Notes: a model not told the origin generated them from the sequence alone. 28,826 bases of DNA from Anaerolineales bacterium (GCA_015494815.1 WGAK01000275.1:1-28826); one strand, 5' to 3'. Counted from the stretch's first letter, positions 466 to 7,119 are shown. Made by a program: numbers and translations.

Positions 466-1329
466 TCACGCGCCCCAGGCGATGAGCAGCATGGTCAGCA
501 GCATGTAAAGCGACGCGGACTTGAAGAGCAGGAAGTTGCGCTGGGGGGTGGGGCGCAGCGCGTTGGTGAAGGCCAGCAGCGCCAACGCGACCGACAGCAC
601 CACCAGCACGCTCAGCGCGCCGGATGTCAGCCCGATGAGCCCGGCCGCGGCGATGATGGTGCCCGCAGCCAGCACCGCGGCCAGCGCGATGACCGCGTAG
701 GCCACGCGCGAGCCGTAGACGCCGGGCACGGTGGGCACACCGGCTTTGCGGTAGTCGTCGGCATAGCGCAGGGCAAAGGTCACGATGTGGGTGGGAATCC
801 AGAACAGCACGGCCAGGGCCAGCAGCACGCCGATGAGGTCCACTTGCTCCACGGCCAGCGCGCGGCCGGCCAGCACGGGCATGCCGCCCGACAGCCCGCC
901 CCACACGATGGACCACGCGGTGCGGCGTTTGAGCCACAGGGTGTACACCACCACATCCAGGAACCAGCCCGCGAAGACCACCAGCCCATAGAGCGGCGCC
1001 AGGGCCACGGCCAGGCCCACACCCAGCACGGTGAGCAGCAATCCCAGTCGAAGTGCCTCGCGTGGCTGGACCTTGCCTGCGGGCAGCGGCCGCCAGCAGG
1101 TGCGGGCCATACGCGCGTCAATGTCCCGGTCGTACCACATGTTGAGCACCGTGCTGCCCGCGATGGCCAGCCACAGGCTGAGCACCAGGCCCACGGTTTG
1201 GCCCCACGGCCCGCGCGTGCCCGGATGCGCGCTGTAATAGCCGGCCACGCCCGTGGCCAGCAACAGCGCGGTCTGCAAACTCTTGGTCATTTGCCCGTAC
1301 AGGCGCAGGCGAATCCAAAGGTTCCTCAT
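466..1329 (-). CDS. ctaB: Protoheme IX farnesyltransferase (heme O synthase), UbiA family
   Basis: Motifs NMWYDRDIDARMARTCWRPLPAG, YTLWLKRRT..GG..G..P.LAG and FWIPTH...DDYRKAGVP; about 9 hydrophobic segments; RBS AAGGAG upstream. Confidence 0.9.
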   Translation of the reverse strand: MRNLWIRLRLYGQMTKSLQTALLLATGVAGYYSAHPGTRGPWGQTVGLVLSLWLAIAGSTVLNMWYDRDIDARMARTCWRPLPAGKVQPREALRLGLLLTVLGVGLAVALAPLYGLVVFAGWFLDVVVYTLWLKRRTAWSIVWGGLSGGMPVLAGRALAVEQVDLIGVLLALAVLFWIPTHIVTFALRYADDYRKAGVPTVPGVYGSRVAYAVIALAAVLAAGTIIAAAGLIGLTSGALSVLVVLSVALALLAFTNALRPTPQRNFLLFKSASLYMLLTMLLIAWGA

Positions 1330-1402: not shown

Positions 1403-2320
1403 TCAGGGTGCTTCGCGAACGCAGCGCGCGCCCACCGTGGGCCCGGCGAAATCGGGCGGCGCGAAGTTGCGCCAGGTCGCGCGGGCGTCAATTTCGTAGT
1501 CGGTGAAACTGCCGCCTTTCAGGATGCGCTGGTGGGTTTCTTCGATGTCGTCGGCCACCCATTCCCACACATTGCCGGCCATGTCATACACGCCATACGG
1601 GCTGGCCGCGTCTTCGGTCTGAAAGCCCAGGTAAGTGCCGCCGTTGTAGAAACCCACGGGCGTGGTTTCGCCCAGGCCGCCCCAATACGCTTCGAAGGGG
1701 TCGCGGCTCTTGTAGTAATTGGCGTGCGCCCGGGTGATTTCCCAGCCCCAGGGGTAGGGGCGGCCGTCGGTGCCTCGGGCGGCCTTTTCCCATTCGGCCT
1801 CGAAGGGCAAACGCCCGCCCACCGCGCGGCAGTAGGCCCACGCGCCGAACCAGGTCACATAGGTGGCCGGGTGGTTCTCGAAACCGGCCCGCACGGTGAA
1901 CCGGCCGTCGGTGTAGACCACCTTGGCCCCCACCGCGTCGCGCGGATAGGCCAGATACGCGCCCGGCCCGATTTCTTCTTCGTGTTTGCCGCCCTGGAAG
2001 GGCTCGCCGGGATACTGCACCCAGACGCCGGTGTCGTCCAGGGTCAGGGTGCCGTCGGCCAGACCCTGGTTGAGAAACGCGGCCCATTGCGCATTGGTCA
2101 CGGGGGTGACCATGATTTCGTAGGCCTGCTCCAGCACCACGCGCTCGTTGTGCAGGCCGAACAAGAAGGCCCCGGCCGGAATGCGCACCCACGCGTCGGG
2201 GTCAACGCCGGTGTCCACTGTGGGGACGGAAGTGGGGGGCTGCAGATTGGCGCGGCAGGCCGCGGTCCACACGGCCAGGCCGACCAGCAGCAGCCCGACG
2301 AGGAACCGCTGCGGCTTCAT
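1403..2320 (-). CDS. FGE-sulfatase (SUMF1/NirV-like) domain lipoprotein, 305 aa
   Basis: Start at ATG 2320 overlaps the upstream stop (ATGA). Signal peptide MKPQRFLVGLLLVGLAVWTAAC with lipobox. FGE-domain motifs: WVRIPAGAFLFG, TPVTNAQW, PATYVTWFGAWAYC, GRLPFEAEWEKAARG, YPWG, YGVYDMAGNVWEW, KGGSF, GARC. Confidence 0.82.
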   Translation of the reverse strand: MKPQRFLVGLLLVGLAVWTAACRANLQPPTSVPTVDTGVDPDAWVRIPAGAFLFGLHNERVVLEQAYEIMVTPVTNAQWAAFLNQGLADGTLTLDDTGVWVQYPGEPFQGGKHEEEIGPGAYLAYPRDAVGAKVVYTDGRFTVRAGFENHPATYVTWFGAWAYCRAVGGRLPFEAEWEKAARGTDGRPYPWGWEITRAHANYYKSRDPFEAYWGGLGETTPVGFYNGGTYLGFQTEDAASPYGVYDMAGNVWEWVADDIEETHQRILKGGSFTDYEIDARATWRNFAPPDFAGPTVGARCVREAP

Positions 2321-3813
2321 GGCGTGTCCTCCTCGTACAGGGGCGGGAAGGCCGGTTGTTGCCATTCCGCGTACCAACGCCCTTGCGGCTTGAACAGGTC
2401 CACCAACCGCCAAATCAGGAACGCGGCCAGGGCGACCAGGAACAGCGACAGCGCGATGTCCATGACGATGAGGGTGCGGGCGACCAAAGGCTGTTCCAGG
2501 ATTTCGGGCACGAACACCCGCTTGAGCACCAGCACATTGGCGGCCAAGGTCGCGGTCATGGCGCCCAAGATGACAATCCAGCCCAGCCATTGGCGGGCCT
2601 TCCCCTGCACGCCGGCCAGGTGGAGGTAGTACAGCAGCAAGATGGACGCGATGATGAAGGCCAGGATGTGCCAGTGCCCCACCAGGCCGATTTTCTCCTC
2701 ACGCAGCAGCCAGCGCCGGAACATGTCCAGTTTGATGGCCATGTACACGCCCGGCGCGGTGACCACGATGTTCATGAACAGCATCAACCAGGTCGCACCC
2801 CAGGGCAAGGGGTCGTGCAGCATGGCCTTGAGTTTGGCGCCCAACCCGGCCAGGCGCGGCTCGCGGCCCTGGCGGGCCAGCCCGACCTGGATTTGCCGTC
2901 GCCATACATAGATGGCCAGGAACACCGAGGCAATCATGAGGAAGCCTGCGCCCACGTTGATGACCTTGTGCGCGATGTCGCGGAAAGGCACCACCATCCA
3001 CGCGCCCACGCTGATGATGACCGTGCCGATGATGTTCAGGGGCATGGCCCATTTTTGCGGCCAGCCTTTGAAGTCCACCCAGCGGCTGACGATGAACACC
3101 GCGGCCACCGCGATGTCCACCAGCATGATGTGCAGGTGGCCGACGATGGCCAGTTCCAGCGGGGTGTGGTAGGGGATGCGGATGATGTCTTCGGACAGGA
3201 AGACCTCGAAGCCGTGGCCGTAGAACGAGCCGGGCACCGCGCCGTACACGGCCGAAATCAGCGTGGCCACGGCCATGATGAACACGGCCAACCGTTCACC
3301 ATCCACCCCGCCTTTGAGCCGCCAGTAGGGCGTGTCGGCCGGTAGACGAAAGGCCTTGTCCCAGGGCCACAGGGCCGCGGCCAACACCAGTCCTCCGGCA
3401 AAGATGAGGGATTGCCCGAAGAGGAACAGGCCGTGGAACACCCAGTTGTGGCCCCAATACGCGAAGGCCAGACCGAAAATCATGGCCGACAGATAGCCCA
3501 CGGTGATGAGGATGTGAATCACCAGGCGCAAATTTTCCCGCATGCGATACAGCCCGGTGAGCATGTAGACTTCCACGGCAATGACGGCCATCGCGAACGC
3601 GTGGTACAGGAAAATCAGCCGCCCTTCCCGTTCCGCGGGGTCGAGGTCCATGCCCCACAGACGAATCCAGAAGTCCCGCACGCCCCACTCGGCCATGGGC
3701 CCTGAGAGCATGCCCATGAACGCGGCGGTCAAGGCGATGAGGGCCACGGTGCCCAGCACCAGGCCCCGGGAGGAACCGAAGAGATAGCGCAAACGAGCCG
3801 ATACGCCCTTCAT
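2317..3813 (-). CDS. 12-TM His-rich integral membrane protein (498 aa); heme-copper oxidase/NOR subunit I-like His arrangement; function unknown
   Basis: ATG 3813 with GGAGG RBS. Twelve hydrophobic segments in three 4-helix repeats. His motifs LYHAFAM (H71), GHLHIM (H226/H228), IAHKV (H282), GHWHIL (H380/H382). The CDS is confident; the fold assignment is inference. Confidence 0.8.
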   Translation of the reverse strand: MKGVSARLRYLFGSSRGLVLGTVALIALTAAFMGMLSGPMAEWGVRDFWIRLWGMDLDPAEREGRLIFLYHAFAMAVIAVEVYMLTGLYRMRENLRLVIHILITVGYLSAMIFGLAFAYWGHNWVFHGLFLFGQSLIFAGGLVLAAALWPWDKAFRLPADTPYWRLKGGVDGERLAVFIMAVATLISAVYGAVPGSFYGHGFEVFLSEDIIRIPYHTPLELAIVGHLHIMLVDIAVAAVFIVSRWVDFKGWPQKWAMPLNIIGTVIISVGAWMVVPFRDIAHKVINVGAGFLMIASVFLAIYVWRRQIQVGLARQGREPRLAGLGAKLKAMLHDPLPWGATWLMLFMNIVVTAPGVYMAIKLDMFRRWLLREEKIGLVGHWHILAFIIASILLLYYLHLAGVQGKARQWLGWIVILGAMTATLAANVLVLKRVFVPEILEQPLVARTLIVMDIALSLFLVALAAFLIWRLVDLFKPQGRWYAEWQQPAFPPLYEEDTP

Positions 3814-3877: not shown

Positions 3878-4504
3878 TCATTTGGCCATCAGGTGCTTGA
3901 CGAAGCCCCAGGCGTAGGCCAGGGTCATCAGCAGCAGCAAGGGGGCCAGGATGGTCAGCACCACGGGCTGGCTGAAGAACAGGAACTGTTTGCCGGCCTT
4001 GAGGAAGGACAGCGCGATGCCGCCCAGGCCGATGAGCACGCCGCCCACGGCCACCAGGGCGAACCCGGCCGGCGCGGCGCTCTGGCTCACGGCCAGCAGC
4101 GGCAGCACGATGATGGTCAGACCGGCGATGCCGTGCACGAAGGGCATGACGAATTTGCCGTAGGTCGCGCCCATGCCGCCCAGGTACACCGCGGCTACGA
4201 GCAGAAAGCCCACCACCGCATAGAGCAGATAGGCTTTGGCCCACTGGGGCTTCAGGTCATACACCAGCCCCGTGGCCAGCCCCAAGGGGATGAGGGTGGT
4301 CACCACCACCACCCACGGCGACCCCAGCAGGTCGTAGCCGAAGGCGATGAGCAACACGCCGGCGACCAGCAGCACGAGGAAGGACAGCATGTAGGCCAGG
4401 TAGGCCGTGCGGGGGGTCTTGTTGTAGGCCTGATAGAGGCGGGCCAGGGCATACAGGGCCACCAGCCCGGTCAGCAAGAGAAGAACGCGGTCCAGCCAGT
4501 TCAT
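3878..4504 (-). CDS. Hypothetical 7-TM membrane protein (208 aa) with a single intramembrane His
   Basis: Strong RBS AAGGAGGT. Seven hydrophobic segments; PFVHGIAG in TM5. Directly downstream of nirS. Confidence 0.8.
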   Translation of the reverse strand: MNWLDRVLLLLTGLVALYALARLYQAYNKTPRTAYLAYMLSFLVLLVAGVLLIAFGYDLLGSPWVVVVTTLIPLGLATGLVYDLKPQWAKAYLLYAVVGFLLVAAVYLGGMGATYGKFVMPFVHGIAGLTIIVLPLLAVSQSAAPAGFALVAVGGVLIGLGGIALSFLKAGKQFLFFSQPVVLTILAPLLLLMTLAYAWGFVKHLMAK

Positions 4505-4588: not shown

Positions 4589-6361
4589 TTAGTAGATGTC
4601 GTTCATGGTGTTGTAGACATTGAACTTGCCGGTGGCGGTGGGGAGATTGGGGATGCGGGCGATTTCTTCGAGGGTCGTGGCGTCGTAGACCACCACCTCG
4701 CCCTGCTGCCCTTCGGGGGCGTCAATCTTGCCCCACACGCTCACCCACACCTCGGTGCCGTCCTGGTTGAACTCGAAGTGCACGGCCCGGCCGTAGTCCG
4801 CGACCTCCCAGCACTTCTCGACTTCCAGGGTCTCTTTGTTGATGGCGCACACGCTGCGTTGCTGAGTCTCGTCGTTGCTCAGCGGCGAATCCACGAAGAG
4901 GTAGGGGCTGTTGGGGTGGGTCTTGATGAACAGGTTGCCGGCAGCGGGCAGTTCGACCCGGGCGACCTCCTTCCAGGCATAGTCGGGGTGGCCTTCGGGG
5001 TCAACGCCGATGATGGAGATGAAGTTATCGCCCAGGTGCCCCGTGGCCCACACCGGGCCATACTCCGGATGCACCCAGTTGGCGCCCCGGCCGGGGTGCG
5101 GCTTGGTGCCCACGGGCACGATGGCTTCGATTTTCTCTTCCTCGGTGTTGACCACCACAATCTTGTTACGCATGTTGGCCGCCACCAGGAAGTACGGGCT
5201 CAGGCCCACGCGCTCGGTGCCGTCCCACTCCATGGCCCAACCGCCGTCGTGCAAGAAGCGCTCGGCTTCGAGCATGCGGATGGTGGGGTTGTTGGGGTCG
5301 CTGTAGTCCACCAGCCAGACCTGGCCGGTTTCCTTCACATTGACCACCCACTGCGGCCGGGCATGCGAGGCCACGATGCTGGCCACCCGCGGCTCGGGGT
5401 GATATTCCTCGGTGTCATAGGTGTAACTGCGGGTGCTGACGACCTTGAAGGGCTCCAGGGTCTGCCCGTCGAGGATGACGAAGTGCGGCGGCCAGTAGCA
5501 GCCCACGATGGCGTACTTGTCCTCGTAGCCCGCGTATTTGCTGGTGTCCACCGAGCGGGCGTCGTAGCACACCTTGACCTTGGCCACCAGGTCGGGCGTT
5601 TCCATCCACAAGTCAATCAGGCCCACTTTGCCGTCCCGGCCGATGGTGTACACATAGCGGCCGCTCTTGGACATGCGCACGATGTGGGTGGCGTAGCCGC
5701 TCTCGACGATGTTGACCACCTCTTTGGTGTCGCCGTCAATGATGGCCACTTTGCCCGCGTCCCGCAGGATGACCACGAAGAAGTTCTGCCAGTTGCGGTC
5801 ATGCTGGGGCTCGGTGGGCCGTTCCTCGGGCGGCACCAGCACTTCCCAGGACTCCTTCATCTGTTCCAGGGACATCTCCGGCGGCATGGGCGGGTCCATC
5901 TGGATGTACTTGGCCATGAGTTCGGTCTCGGCCTCGGTCAACACACCCTGCTTGCCCCAGTCGGGCATGCCGCGCGAAGTGCCGTTGAAGATGATGGAGG
6001 CCAGGTTGGTGGTGCCCAGGCGGCGGGTGTTCTCCGGCTCCAGGCTGGGGCCGGTGGCGCCCTTGCGCAGCACGCCGTGGCAGCCCGCGCAGCGGTCGAA
6101 GTAGATTTGCTTGGCCTTGGCGAACTCTTCGTCGCTCAGCGTGATTTCGTCCGTAGCCGCGGCCTCGGTGGCCTCGGGCGTGGCTTCGGCTTCGGGCGTG
6201 GCCTCCACCGTCACCACCACCGTCTTGACGACTTCCACCGTCTTGACCACTTCGCGTACCTCGGGCGTGGCCGCGGCCTGCCCGCCGCAGGCCGTGAGCA
6301 CCGCGCCCGCCAGCGCAGCAACCAACAACACGAGCATCCAACGCAACGATGATTTGTGCAT
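4589..6361 (-). CDS. nirS: Cytochrome cd1 nitrite reductase, lipoprotein-anchored (590 aa)
   Basis: Heme c site RCAGCHGVLRKGATG, Met ligand GMPDWG, d1 proximal His GYATHIVRMSKSGRY, distal His FLHDGGW and KPHPGRGAN, ARSV, and C-terminal TGKFNVYNT..DIY. Start placed at ATG 6361 (RBS AAGGAG), giving signal peptide MHKSSLRWMLVLLVAALAGAVLTAC. Confidence 0.95.
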   Translation of the reverse strand: MHKSSLRWMLVLLVAALAGAVLTACGGQAAATPEVREVVKTVEVVKTVVVTVEATPEAEATPEATEAAATDEITLSDEEFAKAKQIYFDRCAGCHGVLRKGATGPSLEPENTRRLGTTNLASIIFNGTSRGMPDWGKQGVLTEAETELMAKYIQMDPPMPPEMSLEQMKESWEVLVPPEERPTEPQHDRNWQNFFVVILRDAGKVAIIDGDTKEVVNIVESGYATHIVRMSKSGRYVYTIGRDGKVGLIDLWMETPDLVAKVKVCYDARSVDTSKYAGYEDKYAIVGCYWPPHFVILDGQTLEPFKVVSTRSYTYDTEEYHPEPRVASIVASHARPQWVVNVKETGQVWLVDYSDPNNPTIRMLEAERFLHDGGWAMEWDGTERVGLSPYFLVAANMRNKIVVVNTEEEKIEAIVPVGTKPHPGRGANWVHPEYGPVWATGHLGDNFISIIGVDPEGHPDYAWKEVARVELPAAGNLFIKTHPNSPYLFVDSPLSNDETQQRSVCAINKETLEVEKCWEVADYGRAVHFEFNQDGTEVWVSVWGKIDAPEGQQGEVVVYDATTLEEIARIPNLPTATGKFNVYNTMNDIY

Positions 6362-6405: not shown

Positions 6406-6448
6406 AGTGTAACGCGAGGTTGTGAGGCGTTCTGTGACGCGTGTCACA
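6406..6448 (-). promoter_or_regulatory. Class II CRP-family-activated promoter of the nirS operon
   Basis: Perfect palindromic box TGTGA-CGCGTG-TCACA at 6433-6448 and minus-strand -10 TACACT at 6406-6411. If +1 is about 6399, the box centre (6440.5) lies at -41.5. Confidence 0.8.
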
Positions 6449-6454
6449 TAAAAA

Positions 6455-6470
6455 AGTGACGGATGTCATG
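6455..6470. promoter_or_regulatory. Second, imperfect CRP-type box 22 bp upstream of the first
   Basis: AGTGA-CGGATG-TCATG keeps the GTGA-N6-TCA core and overlaps the regulator stop codon. Confidence 0.4.
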
Positions 6471-7119
6471 CTTCGGCCGTGGCCGTGGCGTGCAGACGCT
6501 GCCGCAACCCGTCCGGGTCCAACAGCACCACCCGCCCGCGGCCCGAACGCACCAGGCCGGCGCGGCGCAGCGCGGCCAATTCGCGGCTCACGGTCTCGCG
6601 GCTGGTGCCAATCCATTGCGCCAGTTCCTGGTGGGTGGCGCGCACCACCCATTGCCCCTGGTCGTCCTGGCGAGCGTGTTCCAGCAGGGCCCAAATCAGC
6701 CGTTCCCGCGCGTCGTGGAACATGGAGGTCTGCATACGGGTCACGATGTTGCGGACATGGCGAAAGCATTTGTGGTGCAGCCAGCCCAACAATTCGGGGT
6801 GCTGATTGCACATGGTCTGGAACTCGTCCTTGGGCGCCCAGAGCAAAGTCGTGGGCGTGATGGCGCGGGCAGTGCCCACTTGCGGCCCCTGGTCCAGCAC
6901 CGCCAGAGGGCAGAAGCAGTCGCCTTTGCCGTGACGGCACAGCAGGGTTTGGTGACCGTCGAAGTCCACCCGCTCCAGGTGCACCCGGCCGTCCAGCACC
7001 AGGTAGATGTGCTCCGCGGGGTCACCCTGGTGGAAAATCACCTCGCCGGCCGGCACATGCCGGATGCGAAAGATGGCTTCCATCTGTTCTCGTAGCGTGG
7101 GAGGCAGATTGTGCAGCAT
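6466..7119 (-). CDS. Crp/Fnr family transcriptional regulator (Dnr-like role, CRP-type recognition helix)
   Basis: cNMP-binding-like beta-roll (GEVIFHQGDPAEHIYLVLDGRV) plus HTH THQELAQWIGTSRETVSREL; RBS AGGAG. Confidence 0.92.
   Translation of the reverse strand: MLHNLPPTLREQMEAIFRIRHVPAGEVIFHQGDPAEHIYLVLDGRVHLERVDFDGHQTLLCRHGKGDCFCPLAVLDQGPQVGTARAITPTTLLWAPKDEFQTMCNQHPELLGWLHHKCFRHVRNIVTRMQTSMFHDARERLIWALLEHARQDDQGQWVVRATHQELAQWIGTSRETVSRELAALRRAGLVRSGRGRVVLLDPDGLRQRLHATATAEA

What the first reader, a model, noticed from the sequence alone, without database searches (positions are those of the whole stretch)
2317..3813. 12-TM protein with heme-copper oxidase/NO reductase subunit I-like His geometry but a remodelled active site
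Seen: twelve TM segments in three 4-helix repeats, with His in TM2 (LYHAFAM, H71), TM6 (GHLHIM, H226/H228) and TM10 (GHWHIL, H380/H382), plus H282 after TM7, H122/H127 around TM3-4, and intramembrane acids E81 and D233. By the positive-inside rule these His all sit near the outer face, the same side as lipoprotein NirS. Established: COX1 has the same pseudo-threefold fold with H61 (AHAFVM), H240, H290/H291 and H376/H378 (HFH). Spacings here are 155/56/98 versus 179/50/86. Differences: the CuB/FeB His-His pair is His-Lys (AHK), there is no HPEVY Tyr or NOR HLWVE Glu, and TM6 carries an extra HxH. Inference: a very divergent HCO-superfamily member, which could be a new NO reductase or NO-handling family, a multi-heme quinol-to-NirS electron conduit, or a heme-modifying enzyme.
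Basis: partly seen in the sequence, partly recalled or inferred. Interest (0 to 1): 0.86.

Follow-up and report, generated by a model that had tools for sequence, protein, structure and literature searches.

The report
Orphan oxidase-like heme-O membrane enzyme
This gene encodes a 12-helix membrane protein shaped like the catalytic subunit of respiratory oxidases and nitric oxide reductases, which no family database recognises; it always travels with its own heme O synthase and probably defines an undescribed respiratory or detoxifying enzyme of Chloroflexota.

Summary
Observation confirmed. The gene lies on the minus strand (2317-3813, 498 aa), not the plus strand.

- **Fold.** It has 12 long helices and an N-in topology. 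The model (pLDDT 83.7) matches only heme-copper oxidase (HCO) subunit I folds: cbb3 Z 22.4, NorB 20.9, ba3 about 20, and the next unrelated chain 11.5.
- **Sequence.** Pfam COX1, NCBIfam, PDB sequences and a local HCO profile all fail to detect it.
- **Histidines.** Seven are conserved down to 20-38% identity: H71, H127, H226, H228, H282, H380, H382. H122, D233 and K283 are not conserved. E81 is conserved only in the close subfamily.
- **Internal repeat.** TM3-6 aligns with TM7-10 at E 1.3e-7, pairing H127 with H282 and H226/228 with H380/382.
- **Cassette.** The conserved set is a 7-TM protein, this gene, an FGE-like lipoprotein and heme O synthase. A CRP-type box often precedes it. One lineage fuses the FGE-like domain to this protein.
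- **Heme O.** Three near-complete genomes have the cassette but no canonical HCO and no heme A synthase, so heme O must serve this protein.
- **NirS.** It is adjacent only in the window's own family, and congeners also carry a canonical NorB.

Best reading: a new HCO-like, heme-O-dependent reductase complex, with NO as the likeliest substrate and O2 second. His geometry could not be measured. An earlier report of this scan found a distant relative on other DNA.

The parts
2317..3813 (-). 12-TM HCO-fold protein (498 aa), the finding itself. Conserved His: H71, H127, H226, H228, H282, H380, H382.
   Evidence: ORF and translation. Model and fold matches. Conservation. Internal repeats.
3878..4504 (-). 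7-TM membrane protein (208 aa, 'mem208'), a conserved partner encoded just upstream. It has a single invariant His (H124).
   Evidence: Translation. Upstream position in the Chloroflexota loci. In a 27%-identity relative's locus the upstream protein is 36% identical, E 3e-17. Alignment. Model pLDDT 95. AFDB cluster named 'DUF981 domain-containing', 33% identity, TM 0.82-0.88. No Pfam hit.
1403..2320 (-). FGE-sulfatase-fold lipoprotein (305 aa, lipobox Cys22). It lacks the CxxxxC catalytic pair of true formylglycine-generating enzymes. Its ATG overlaps the stop codon of the 12-TM gene (ATGA).
   Evidence: Pfam PF03781, 1.3e-40. Sequence. Conserved residues. Present in 19 of 20 loci. Natural fusion to the 12-TM protein in P0126.
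466..1329 (-). Dedicated heme O synthase (CtaB/CyoE family), the second copy in this genome.
   Evidence: TIGR01473 215.2 bits against a cut-off of 210.3. Housekeeping ctaA-ctaB on contig C243. A UbiA-family gene sits next to relatives at 38% and 27% identity.
4589..6361 (-). Cytochrome cd1 nitrite reductase NirS, a lipoprotein and the first gene of the operon in this lineage only.
   Evidence: Pfam Cytochrom_D1 1.2e-124 plus a cytochrome c domain. Lipobox. Adjacency only in family f1.
6433..6448 (.). Perfect CRP/FNR-type palindrome TGTGA-N6-TCACA, 72 nt upstream of the nirS start.
   Evidence: In the window alone, 27 of 100 shuffles reach one match. The same box lies 75-120 nt upstream of the first gene of the cassette operon in 10 other loci.
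6466..7119 (-). CRP/FNR-family transcription factor without the FNR N-terminal Cys cluster.
   Evidence: Pfam cNMP_binding plus HTH_Crp_2. Sequence. Homologs lie beside the cassette in L026, L031, L042 and L053.

Best explanation
**What it is.** The gene encodes the catalytic 12-helix subunit of an undescribed membrane enzyme complex. The protein has the architecture of heme-copper oxidase/NO reductase subunit I, but its sequence has diverged beyond recognition. I put the odds of this architecture-plus-heme-O layer at about 0.8; the confidence given below covers the whole statement, including NO as substrate.

**Shown**
- The protein has the HCO fold.
- Seven histidines are conserved, all within the outer third of the membrane.
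- It is built from three sequence-related 4-helix units.
- It is encoded with a 7-TM partner and a dedicated heme O synthase over deep divergence.
- In the Chloroflexota subfamily an outer-face FGE-like lipoprotein joins the set. One lineage fuses that domain to the 12-TM protein.
- In genomes with no other HCO and no heme A synthase, the cassette's heme O synthase has no other plausible client.

**Inferred mechanism**
- H71 (TM2) and H382 (TM10) bind a low-spin heme.
- H380 is the proximal ligand of a high-spin heme O.
- One TM6 His plus H282 form a reduced, two-His distal metal site, or a purely protein distal site, in place of the canonical 1+2 His CuB/FeB site.
- The symmetry-related pair, the other TM6 His plus H127, holds a further cofactor or metal in the pore that is empty in canonical HCOs.
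- Electrons probably come from menaquinol, because no cytochrome c or copper subunit is encoded in the cassette.
- Protons probably come from the outer face, where all conserved charged motifs lie: ERExR before TM2, ED..R before TM6 and FR..REE before TM10.
- The substrate is a small diatomic gas. NO is the most likely one, reduced or detoxified at the outer face. This rests on the lack of a cross-linkable Tyr in TM6/TM7, on CRP/FNR-type control, and on adjacency to nirS here and to an atypical HCO elsewhere.
For: **Fold**
- VIA-align: the top ten chains are all HCO subunit I, with Z 15.4-22.4 over 384-425 residues. The next unrelated chain scores 11.5.
- Foldseek against PDB gives probability 1.00 and TM about 0.6 to ba3, aa3 and NorB.
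- The top AFDB cluster hit is named 'Cytochrome oxidase subunit I profile domain-containing protein' (23% identity, E 9e-14, TM about 0.7).

**Histidines and alignment to HCOs**
- His conservation.
- In-register profile alignments put GHWHI on the HCO TM10 GHFH heme ligands. For TM7-10 alone this gives E 0.0022, the best of four repeat combinations.
- Internal repeat with controls.

**Cassette**
- The cassette is conserved in 19 of 20 Chloroflexota loci.
- A UbiA/CtaB gene sits next to the homolog at 38% and 27% identity, and a mem208 homolog is present at 27%.
- The FGE fusion protein has 8 members, all of 785 aa, on at least 14 contigs.

**Heme O**
- G142, G187 and G238 (98-100% complete) have no COX1 and no CtaA, and their only heme O synthase above the cut-off is the cassette copy.
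- The window's own genome has a separate housekeeping ctaA-ctaB pair.

**Link to denitrification and regulation**
- There is no Tyr in TM6 or TM7. According to PMC11214002, HCO families that lack the active-site Tyr are not O2 reductases.
- A CRP box lies upstream of nirS in the window and upstream of the cassette operon in 10 other loci.
- nirS is adjacent in four further genomes of the window's own family.
- In the phylum sample, 10 of 15 NirS genomes carry the family, against 24 of 401 genomes overall.
Against: - No coordinates were available, so convergence of the histidines on two heme sites is untested.
- A global profile alignment to A-family HCOs prefers a register shifted by one 4-helix repeat (E 0.0099). 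Residue equivalences are therefore ambiguous.
- Sequence homology to HCOs is not significant.
- H226 and H228 are at i and i+2 on a helix, so they cannot both face one metal.
- Canonical NorB (HLWVE motif) coexists with the family in congeners G002 and G003. An atypical HCO sits next to the cassette in L026. A further NO reductase is therefore not obviously needed.
- 14 of 24 cassette genomes lack NirS, and within family f6 the overlap (9 of 10 against a 16 of 24 base rate) is barely above expectation.
- In cNOR and qNOR the hemes are heme b, and heme O/A is best known from O2 reductases. The exception is eNOR, which binds heme As (PMC11214002).
- The FGE-like subunit has no recognisable redox motif.
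Confidence: 0.45

Rival explanations
1. It is a terminal or O2-scavenging oxygen reductase. A very divergent heme-O-containing oxidase would let nominally anaerobic Chloroflexota consume traces of O2 and protect O2-sensitive enzymes such as the denitrification apparatus.
For: - Heme O/A is the hallmark cofactor of HCO oxygen reductases. Heme O synthase genes sit at the end of oxidase operons such as cyoABCDE (established knowledge).
- The cassette carries its own CtaB over deep divergence.
- It occurs in genomes with no other HCO.
- The cassette is preceded by a CRP/FNR-type box. In other bacteria high-affinity oxidases are typically under FNR-family regulators (established knowledge).
- Two Tyr (Y70, Y119) are nearly invariant in distant relatives and might replace the canonical Tyr, as happened by helix switching in the C family (references 7 and 8 in PMC11214002).
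Against: - There is no Tyr in TM6 or TM7.
- Only one His follows TM7 instead of the HH pair, so a three-His CuB site is not evident.
- No conserved inner-side proton channel residues were recognised.
- No copper chaperone or CuA subunit is encoded in the cassette.
Confidence: 0.22
2. It is an NnrS-like NO-stress protein. This would be a heme- and metal-binding membrane protein that senses, binds or buffers NO without respiratory turnover, paired with a NirV-like (FGE-fold) partner. That parallels the nirK-nirV and nnrS genes of proteobacterial NnrR regulons.
For: - An ESM Atlas cluster in which 33% of members carry Pfam NnrS matches the model at TM 0.63-0.68 over 402 residues.
- The partner has the FGE-sulfatase fold, which is also the fold of NirV (my own knowledge, not tested here).
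- CRP/FNR-family control and nirS adjacency.
Against: - Pfam NnrS matches none of 20 family members, even at E 10.
- A profile comparison with two Chloroflexota NnrS proteins gives E 0.63.
- NnrS is not known to need heme O, whereas this family is tied to a heme O synthase.
- Solved HCO structures match clearly, with the best Z at 22.4 against 11.5 for the first unrelated chain. The Foldseek TM to ba3/aa3/NorB (about 0.6) is no higher than the TM to the NnrS-containing cluster.
Confidence: 0.1
3. It is a heme-modifying or heme-handling enzyme. It would take heme O from the adjacent synthase and convert or deliver it, for example as an alternative heme A-type synthase or an insertion factor, with the FGE-like ('formyl-generating' family) protein taking part.
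For: - Gene linkage to the heme O synthase is strict.
- Internally repeated 4-helix bundles with paired His recall heme A synthase architecture (my own knowledge).
- The partner belongs to the FGE-sulfatase family.
- In L026 the cassette follows an HCO that could be a client.
Against: - In G142, G187 and G238 no HCO exists that could receive a modified heme.
- The FGE-like protein lacks the catalytic Cys pair and sits outside the membrane, away from heme synthesis.
- No heme A synthase structure appears among the fold matches.
- The window's own genome already has ctaA.
Confidence: 0.08
4. It is a multi-heme quinol dehydrogenase that passes electrons laterally to outer-face acceptors such as NirS.
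For: - Two symmetry-related His triads plus H71 could hold three hemes.
- No cytochrome c or copper donor subunit is encoded in the cassette.
- The gene is co-transcribed with lipoprotein NirS in this lineage.
Against: - NirS is not adjacent in 20 of 20 loci from other families.
- NirS was not found in 14 of 24 cassette genomes.
- Heme O is not known from pure electron-transfer hemes.
- The three genomes without HCO or NirS would have no evident acceptor.
Confidence: 0.05

Closest known systems
C-type branch of the heme-copper oxidoreductase superfamily: cbb3 oxidase CcoN (PDB 3mk7) and cNOR NorB (3o0r, 4xyd)
   Same: - It has a 12-TM core with pseudo-threefold 4-helix units. These are the best structural matches: Z 22.4 and 20.9, about 400 and 384 aligned residues.
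- A His lies in TM2 and an HxH in TM10, at similar depth and spacing.
- Like NorB, it has no Tyr in TM6.
- The conserved charged residues lie on the outer face.
   Different: - Identity is 7-9%, and neither the COX1 profile nor a local HCO HMM detects it.
- It has no HH pair at the end of TM7. A single His sits at the start of TM8 instead.
- TM6 has HxH instead of a single His.
- There is an extra invariant His at the start of TM4.
- It has no HLWVE-type Glu residues.
- No cytochrome c subunit (NorC, CcoO/P) is encoded with it.
- It is linked to heme O synthase, whereas cNOR and cbb3 use heme b.
B-family oxygen reductases and the B-related NOR families (eNOR, sNOR, gNOR, nNOR; PMC11214002)
   Same: - The fold matches (ba3 Z about 20, Foldseek TM 0.57-0.61).
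- It depends on a farnesylated heme (eNOR binds heme As).
- Its active site lacks the cross-linked Tyr and departs from the canonical His set. gNOR is the published precedent for replacing an active-site His.
   Different: [quoted passage not shown]
- This family has neither. It has FGE-like and 7-TM partners instead.
- Its His pattern is 1 + 2 + 1 + 2 plus one extra, against the canonical 1 + 1 + 2 + 2.
NnrS (Pfam PF05940), a heme- and copper-containing 12-TM protein of NO-responsive regulons
   Same: - A predicted-structure cluster that contains NnrS members matches at TM 0.63-0.68.
- The context is linked to denitrification, and the partner has an FGE/NirV-like fold.
   Different: - No sequence or profile similarity was found.
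- NnrS has no known link to heme O synthase.
- NnrS was found in only 2 of 151 Chloroflexota genomes sampled, and in none of the cassette genomes listed individually in that output.

Membership tests
Heme-copper oxidoreductase superfamily, subunit I | 12-TM core fold with three 4-helix arcs | tested here: met
   VIA-align Z 15.4-22.4 to ten HCO subunit I chains, with the next unrelated chain at 11.5. Foldseek probability 1.00.
Heme-copper oxidoreductase superfamily, subunit I | Recognised by the family sequence profile (Pfam PF00115 COX1) | tested here: not met
   No hit for the protein, nor for 20 diverse members at E up to 10. A local HCO HMM finds none of 152 family proteins. hhalign gives probability 1.6-13%.
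Heme-copper oxidoreductase superfamily, subunit I | Six canonical His: TM2 H, TM6 H, TM7 HH, TM10 HxH | tested here: not met
   The TM2 H, a TM6 H and the TM10 HxH are present and conserved. The HH pair is absent: a single His (H282) lies at the start of TM8 and the next residue is variable.
Heme-copper oxidoreductase superfamily, subunit I | The histidines converge on a low-spin heme and a high-spin heme/metal centre | not testable with these tools
   No model coordinates are returned, and the heme docking job was not folded.
HCO oxygen reductases (A, B, C families) | Cross-linked active-site Tyr (TM6 HPEVY, or TM7 in the C family) | tested here: not met
   There is no Tyr in TM6 (218-245) or TM7 (251-272). 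The only nearly invariant Tyr residues are Y70 and Y119.
HCO oxygen reductases (A, B families) | Heme O/A cofactor supplied by a linked heme O synthase | tested here: met
   CtaB lies in the cassette. It is the only heme O synthase in three genomes that lack any COX1 or CtaA. The cofactor itself was not measured.
cNOR/qNOR | TM6 HLWVE and further active-site Glu residues; NorC or a quinol-binding N-terminal domain | tested here: not met
   TM6 reads GHLHIML. No NorC-like gene is in the cassette. A true NorB with HLWVE exists in a congener for comparison.
eNOR/sNOR/gNOR/nNOR (PMC11214002) | Close relation to the B family and a cupredoxin-type subunit II | tested here: not met
   There is no COX1 profile match and no cupredoxin gene in the cassette. 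The partners are FGE-like and 7-TM proteins.
NnrS (PF05940) | Match to the NnrS profile | tested here: not met
   No hit in 20 members at E up to 10. hhalign against two NnrS proteins gives E 0.63. Only fold-level resemblance was found.
Formylglycine-generating enzyme (for the partner at 1403-2320) | Catalytic Cys pair (CxxxxC) that binds Cu(I) | tested here: not met
   The PF03781 fold is present. The only conserved Cys are the lipobox Cys22 and the C164/C300 pair, and no CxxxxC is present.

The most novel reading that the evidence does not exclude
The family may be a surviving deep sister lineage of the heme-copper oxidoreductases that keeps the triplicated 4-helix heme-binding unit in a more symmetric state. 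Two of its three pores carry equivalent His triads, so it could bind three redox cofactors rather than two. It uses heme O and works with an FGE-fold outer subunit instead of a cupredoxin or cytochrome c. If so, this is a new class of respiratory gas reductase in Chloroflexota regarded as anaerobes, and a direct handle on how the HCO scaffold arose.
Probability: 0.2. Interest if true: 0.92.

Novelty: new variant of a known kind. Interest (0 to 1): 0.78.

Why it matters
**Scale.** All known HCO-fold enzymes reduce O2 or NO, and they set much of the global O2 and N2O budgets. This family has more than 2,600 sequences at E 1e-3 or better among 5.8 billion. Every named member is labelled 'hypothetical' and none carries a Pfam domain. 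Gene-based surveys of aerobic respiration and denitrification therefore cannot see it.

**Physiology.** In three near-complete genomes it is the only HCO-like protein and the only reason to make heme O. Those organisms may have an unrecognised capacity to consume NO or O2.

**A published puzzle.** PMC8756737 noted that most Chloroflexi with NirS lack a recognisable nor gene. In my sample, 10 of 15 NirS genomes carry this family.

**Evolution.** An HCO-fold protein with a strong internal repeat signal and a different distribution of metal ligands bears on how the superfamily arose and on what constrains its chemistry.

Tried and rejected
- **Heme docking.** Complex prediction with two hemes and Fe was counted but not folded, so it gives no evidence either way.
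- **Sequence searches.** None gave a useful hit: Pfam and NCBIfam on the protein, Pfam on 20 diverse members at E up to 10, PDB sequences with the single protein and with a profile, and a local HCO HMM against 152 family proteins.
- **Profile-profile against HCO groups.** The local in-register alignment is weak (E 0.03 and 0.0022). Global mode against the NorB/C-type and B-type groups is meaningless. Against the A family it gives a register shifted by one repeat (E 0.0099). I do not use it to assign residues.
- **NnrS.** There is no sequence relation.
- **ESM Atlas by features.** The best named cluster scores 0.79, below the level at which the tool's own notes allow trust.
- **NirS dependence.** Rejected as a general property.
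- **'The missing NOR of this genus'.** Weakened, because G001, G002 and G003 have a canonical NorB. No NorB was found in the window's own genome, which is only 89.8% complete.
- **Expression.** Only DNA runs from hydrothermal vent metagenomes hold the stretch. No listed RNA run holds it, so no reads were laid.
- **Literature.** Three searches found no description of this family.
- **mem208 fold.** It gives only generic 7-TM matches in the PDB.
Full report
**1. The observation**

The finding's coordinates are right, but the gene is on the minus strand. The plus-strand frame is full of stops. The minus-strand ORF runs from 3855 to 2317, with the likely start at ATG 3813 preceded by GGAGG. The product has 498 residues. 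Third-position GC is 0.87, like the neighbouring genes.

An AlphaFold2 model built on 37 homologs has mean pLDDT 83.7 and pTM 0.88. It shows twelve long helices.

Loops assigned to the inside hold 16 Lys+Arg and those assigned to the outside hold 6. The N-terminus is therefore cytoplasmic, as in heme-copper oxidases. All the histidines in question lie within 3-12 residues of the outer ends of their helices.

**2. Conservation**

The protein belongs to a large family. More than 2,652 proteins match at E 1e-3 or better. Every named one is 'hypothetical', none has a Pfam domain, and most labelled ones are Chloroflexota/Anaerolineae.

| Set | Invariant or nearly invariant |
|---|---|
| 37 homologs at 51-88% identity | H71, H127, H226, H228, H282, H380, H382 invariant |
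| 20 sequences, 16 of them relatives at 20-38% identity taken from an exhaustive search of 1.84 billion representatives | H71, H127, H226, H380, H382 invariant; H228 and H282 at least 90% conserved |

- H122, D233 and the Lys of 'AHK' vary.
- E81 is fixed only in the close subfamily.

**3. Fold**

An exhaustive structural comparison with 48,161 PDB chains puts ten HCO subunit I chains on top. They are cbb3 CcoN (Z 22.4), NorB (20.9), several A/B-type oxidases (18.8-20.1) and qNOR (about 15.5), each over 384-425 aligned residues. The first unrelated chain scores 11.5.

Foldseek agrees, with probability 1.00 and TM about 0.6. The best AlphaFold DB cluster is a 474-aa protein named 'Cytochrome oxidase subunit I profile domain-containing protein' (23% identity, E 9e-14).

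Sequence methods see nothing:
- Pfam COX1, NCBIfam, PDB sequences and a local HCO HMM all fail.
- Profile-profile alignments are weak (E 0.03 to 0.002). They are in register, however, and place GHWHI on the TM10 GHFH heme ligands.
- A global alignment to A-family sequences prefers a register shifted by one 4-helix unit. I therefore treat residue equivalences as provisional.

**4. Internal symmetry**

With the diverse alignment, residues 90-250 (TM3-6) align to 246-402 (TM7-10) at Prob 94%, E 1.3e-7. The alignment pairs H127 with H282 and H226/H228 with H380/H382.

TM11-12 align to TM7-8 at E 5.6e-6, with the His lost. TM1-2 align only weakly to TM9-10, pairing H71 with H382.

Reversed, column-shuffled and unrelated-TM controls give E 0.04-0.46.

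The same test on canonical HCOs from related genomes also gives a signal (E 4.2e-5). The triplicated unit is thus a shared trait, and it is stronger here.

The family carries two equivalent His triads plus H71. Canonical HCOs carry 1+1+2+2.

**5. Context in the window**

All of the following lie on the minus strand:
- a CRP/FNR-family regulator (6466-7119);
- a perfect TGTGA-N6-TCACA box (6433-6448);
- lipoprotein NirS (4589-6361);
- a 7-TM protein (3878-4504);
- the 12-TM gene;
- an FGE-sulfatase-fold lipoprotein whose ATG overlaps the preceding stop (1403-2320);
- a heme O synthase (466-1329).

These rest.

**6. Context elsewhere**

*Distribution.* In a sample of 401 Chloroflexota genomes the family occurs in 24, of which 16 belong to one family of the window's order.

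*Cassette.* In 19 of 20 fetched loci the 12-TM gene is followed by the FGE-like gene, and in 17 of these by CtaB as well. A 7-TM protein gene lies upstream in 14 loci and a second paralog downstream in 15. NirS is never adjacent in these loci.

*NirS.* It is adjacent only in the window's own family: four further genomes across two genera.

*More distant relatives.*

| Relative | Identity to the query | Gene order |
|---|---|---|
| P0130 | 38% | CRP, 12-TM, UbiA-type prenyltransferase |
| P0165 | 27% | 7-TM homolog, 12-TM, UbiA-type prenyltransferase; no FGE gene |
| P0168 | 28% | stands alone |

*Fusion.* One lineage encodes a 785-aa fusion of the 12-TM protein, a thirteenth helix and the FGE-like domain. 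It has eight members, all of 785 aa, on at least 14 contigs. The FGE-like domain is therefore a physical outer-face partner.

*Regulatory box.* The CRP-type box lies 75-120 nt upstream of the first gene of the cassette operon in ten loci.

**7. The heme O argument**

The window's genome has a housekeeping ctaA-ctaB pair elsewhere. The cassette copy is therefore a dedicated second synthase.

Three cassette genomes of 98-100% completeness have no COX1 match even at E 0.01 and no heme A synthase. Their only heme O synthase above the curated cut-off is the cassette copy. In those organisms the 12-TM protein is the only plausible user of heme O.

This is the strongest functional evidence. It ties the family to the one cofactor known so far only from HCO-type enzymes.

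**8. Which substrate?**

*For NO*
- No Tyr is available in TM6 or TM7.
- PMC11214002 argues that HCO families without the active-site Tyr do not reduce O2, and that several active-site designs support NO reduction.
- The cassette is under CRP/FNR-type control.
- It sits next to nirS here.
- In L026 it sits next to an atypical HCO. That protein has Asn in the TM6 His column, with Asp two residues earlier, and its cupredoxin subunit has the CuA Cys residues replaced by Ser. This resembles the published description of gNOR.
- 10 of 15 NirS genomes in the sample carry the family.
- PMC8756737 reports that most Chloroflexi with NirS lack a recognisable nor gene.

*Against NO*
- Congeners G002 and G003 carry both the cassette and a canonical NorB with the HLWVE motif.
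- 14 of 24 cassette genomes lack NirS.
- The NirS overlap is largely phylogenetic.
- Heme O is typical of oxygen reductases.

I therefore rank NO reduction or detoxification first (0.45 for the whole statement) and O2 reduction second (0.22). An NnrS-like role, heme modification and a NirS conduit come below these.

**9. Partners**

The 7-TM protein folds with pLDDT 95 and has one invariant His. It matches an AFDB cluster named 'DUF981 domain-containing'. PDB matches are generic 7-TM bundles.

The FGE-like lipoprotein keeps the fold's signature motifs and two conserved His, but lacks the Cu-binding Cys pair of true FGE. Neither partner has a recognisable cytochrome c or cupredoxin motif. Quinol is thus the likely electron donor; this is inferred.

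**10. Relation to earlier notes of this scan**

One note (e1-967375) reports a distant relative on other DNA, with the same fold assignment and the same closest structures. I reproduced the fold result independently on this protein.

Another (e1-5298475) describes the same operon. My data add that only the last four genes form the conserved unit and that NirS is a lineage-specific addition.

**11. Verdict**

The family is not a member of any defined HCO family or of NnrS by their defining sequence features. It is best described as a new variant of the HCO kind, dependent on heme O and with novel subunits.

The His geometry, the cofactor content and the substrate remain untested.

Noticed in passing
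window 6433-6448; L026-L042 upstream of the cassettes: A perfect CRP-type palindrome TGTGA-N6-TCACA lies 72 nt upstream of nirS. The same box lies 75-120 nt upstream of the first gene of the cassette operon in ten other Chloroflexota loci. Further copies precede neighbouring operons in L030, L032, L036 and L040, which suggests a regulon.
   Followed up: partly
window 2317-2320: The stop codon of the 12-TM gene and the start codon of the FGE-like lipoprotein gene overlap as ATGA. This implies translational coupling.
   Followed up: yes
window 4589-6361 and genome-wide: NirS is a lipoprotein with a long Thr/Glu/Ala/Val-rich linker before its cytochrome c domain. Every Chloroflexota genome with NirS in the samples shows only one Cytochrom_D1-domain gene, so no NirF or NirN paralog was found. 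How heme d1 is made there is unclear.
   Followed up: partly
L026:3041-5202: Directly upstream of the cassette in genome G037 lies an atypical HCO operon. Its 169-aa cupredoxin-like subunit has the CuA Cys residues replaced by Ser. Its COX1 protein (208 bits) has Asn in the TM6 CuB-His column, with Asp two residues before. This resembles the published description of gNOR.
   Followed up: partly
L003:1040-1932 (own genome, contig C141); L058 and L059: Two tandem ORFs of about 150 aa, apparently 4-TM, show weak similarity to the N-terminal part of COX1 (18.8 bits). Weak COX1 N-terminal matches of the same kind occur in several congeners. Next to NnrS in two other Chloroflexota genomes lie 383-aa ORFs that carry a similar His-containing motif three times. 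These may be free-standing or triplicated HCO-like repeat units.
   Followed up: no
L020 (genome G001), also G002:C65 and G003:C184: Three genomes of the window's genus carry NorB-type matches of 484-494 aa. The one read in full (L020, G001) has the motifs HLWVE, GHHYFW and HGHLAF. No NorB was found in the window's own genome, which is 89.8% complete.
   Followed up: yes
L027-L043, downstream of ctaB: Most cassettes outside the window's own family carry a second paralog of the 7-TM protein after ctaB. Each paralog has the single invariant His, and the window's cassette has only the upstream copy. A heterodimer that shares one heme is conceivable.
   Followed up: partly
local HCO alignment (loci L001-L025): Canonical HCO subunit I sequences also show a profile-level internal repeat. 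TM3-6 against TM7-10 gives E 4.2e-5, aligning the TM6 CuB His with the first His of the TM10 HxH.
   Followed up: partly
window:466-6448: The stretch is held almost only by hydrothermal vent metagenomes from several studies, with up to 0.89 of the sampled words. No listed RNA run holds it.
   Followed up: no
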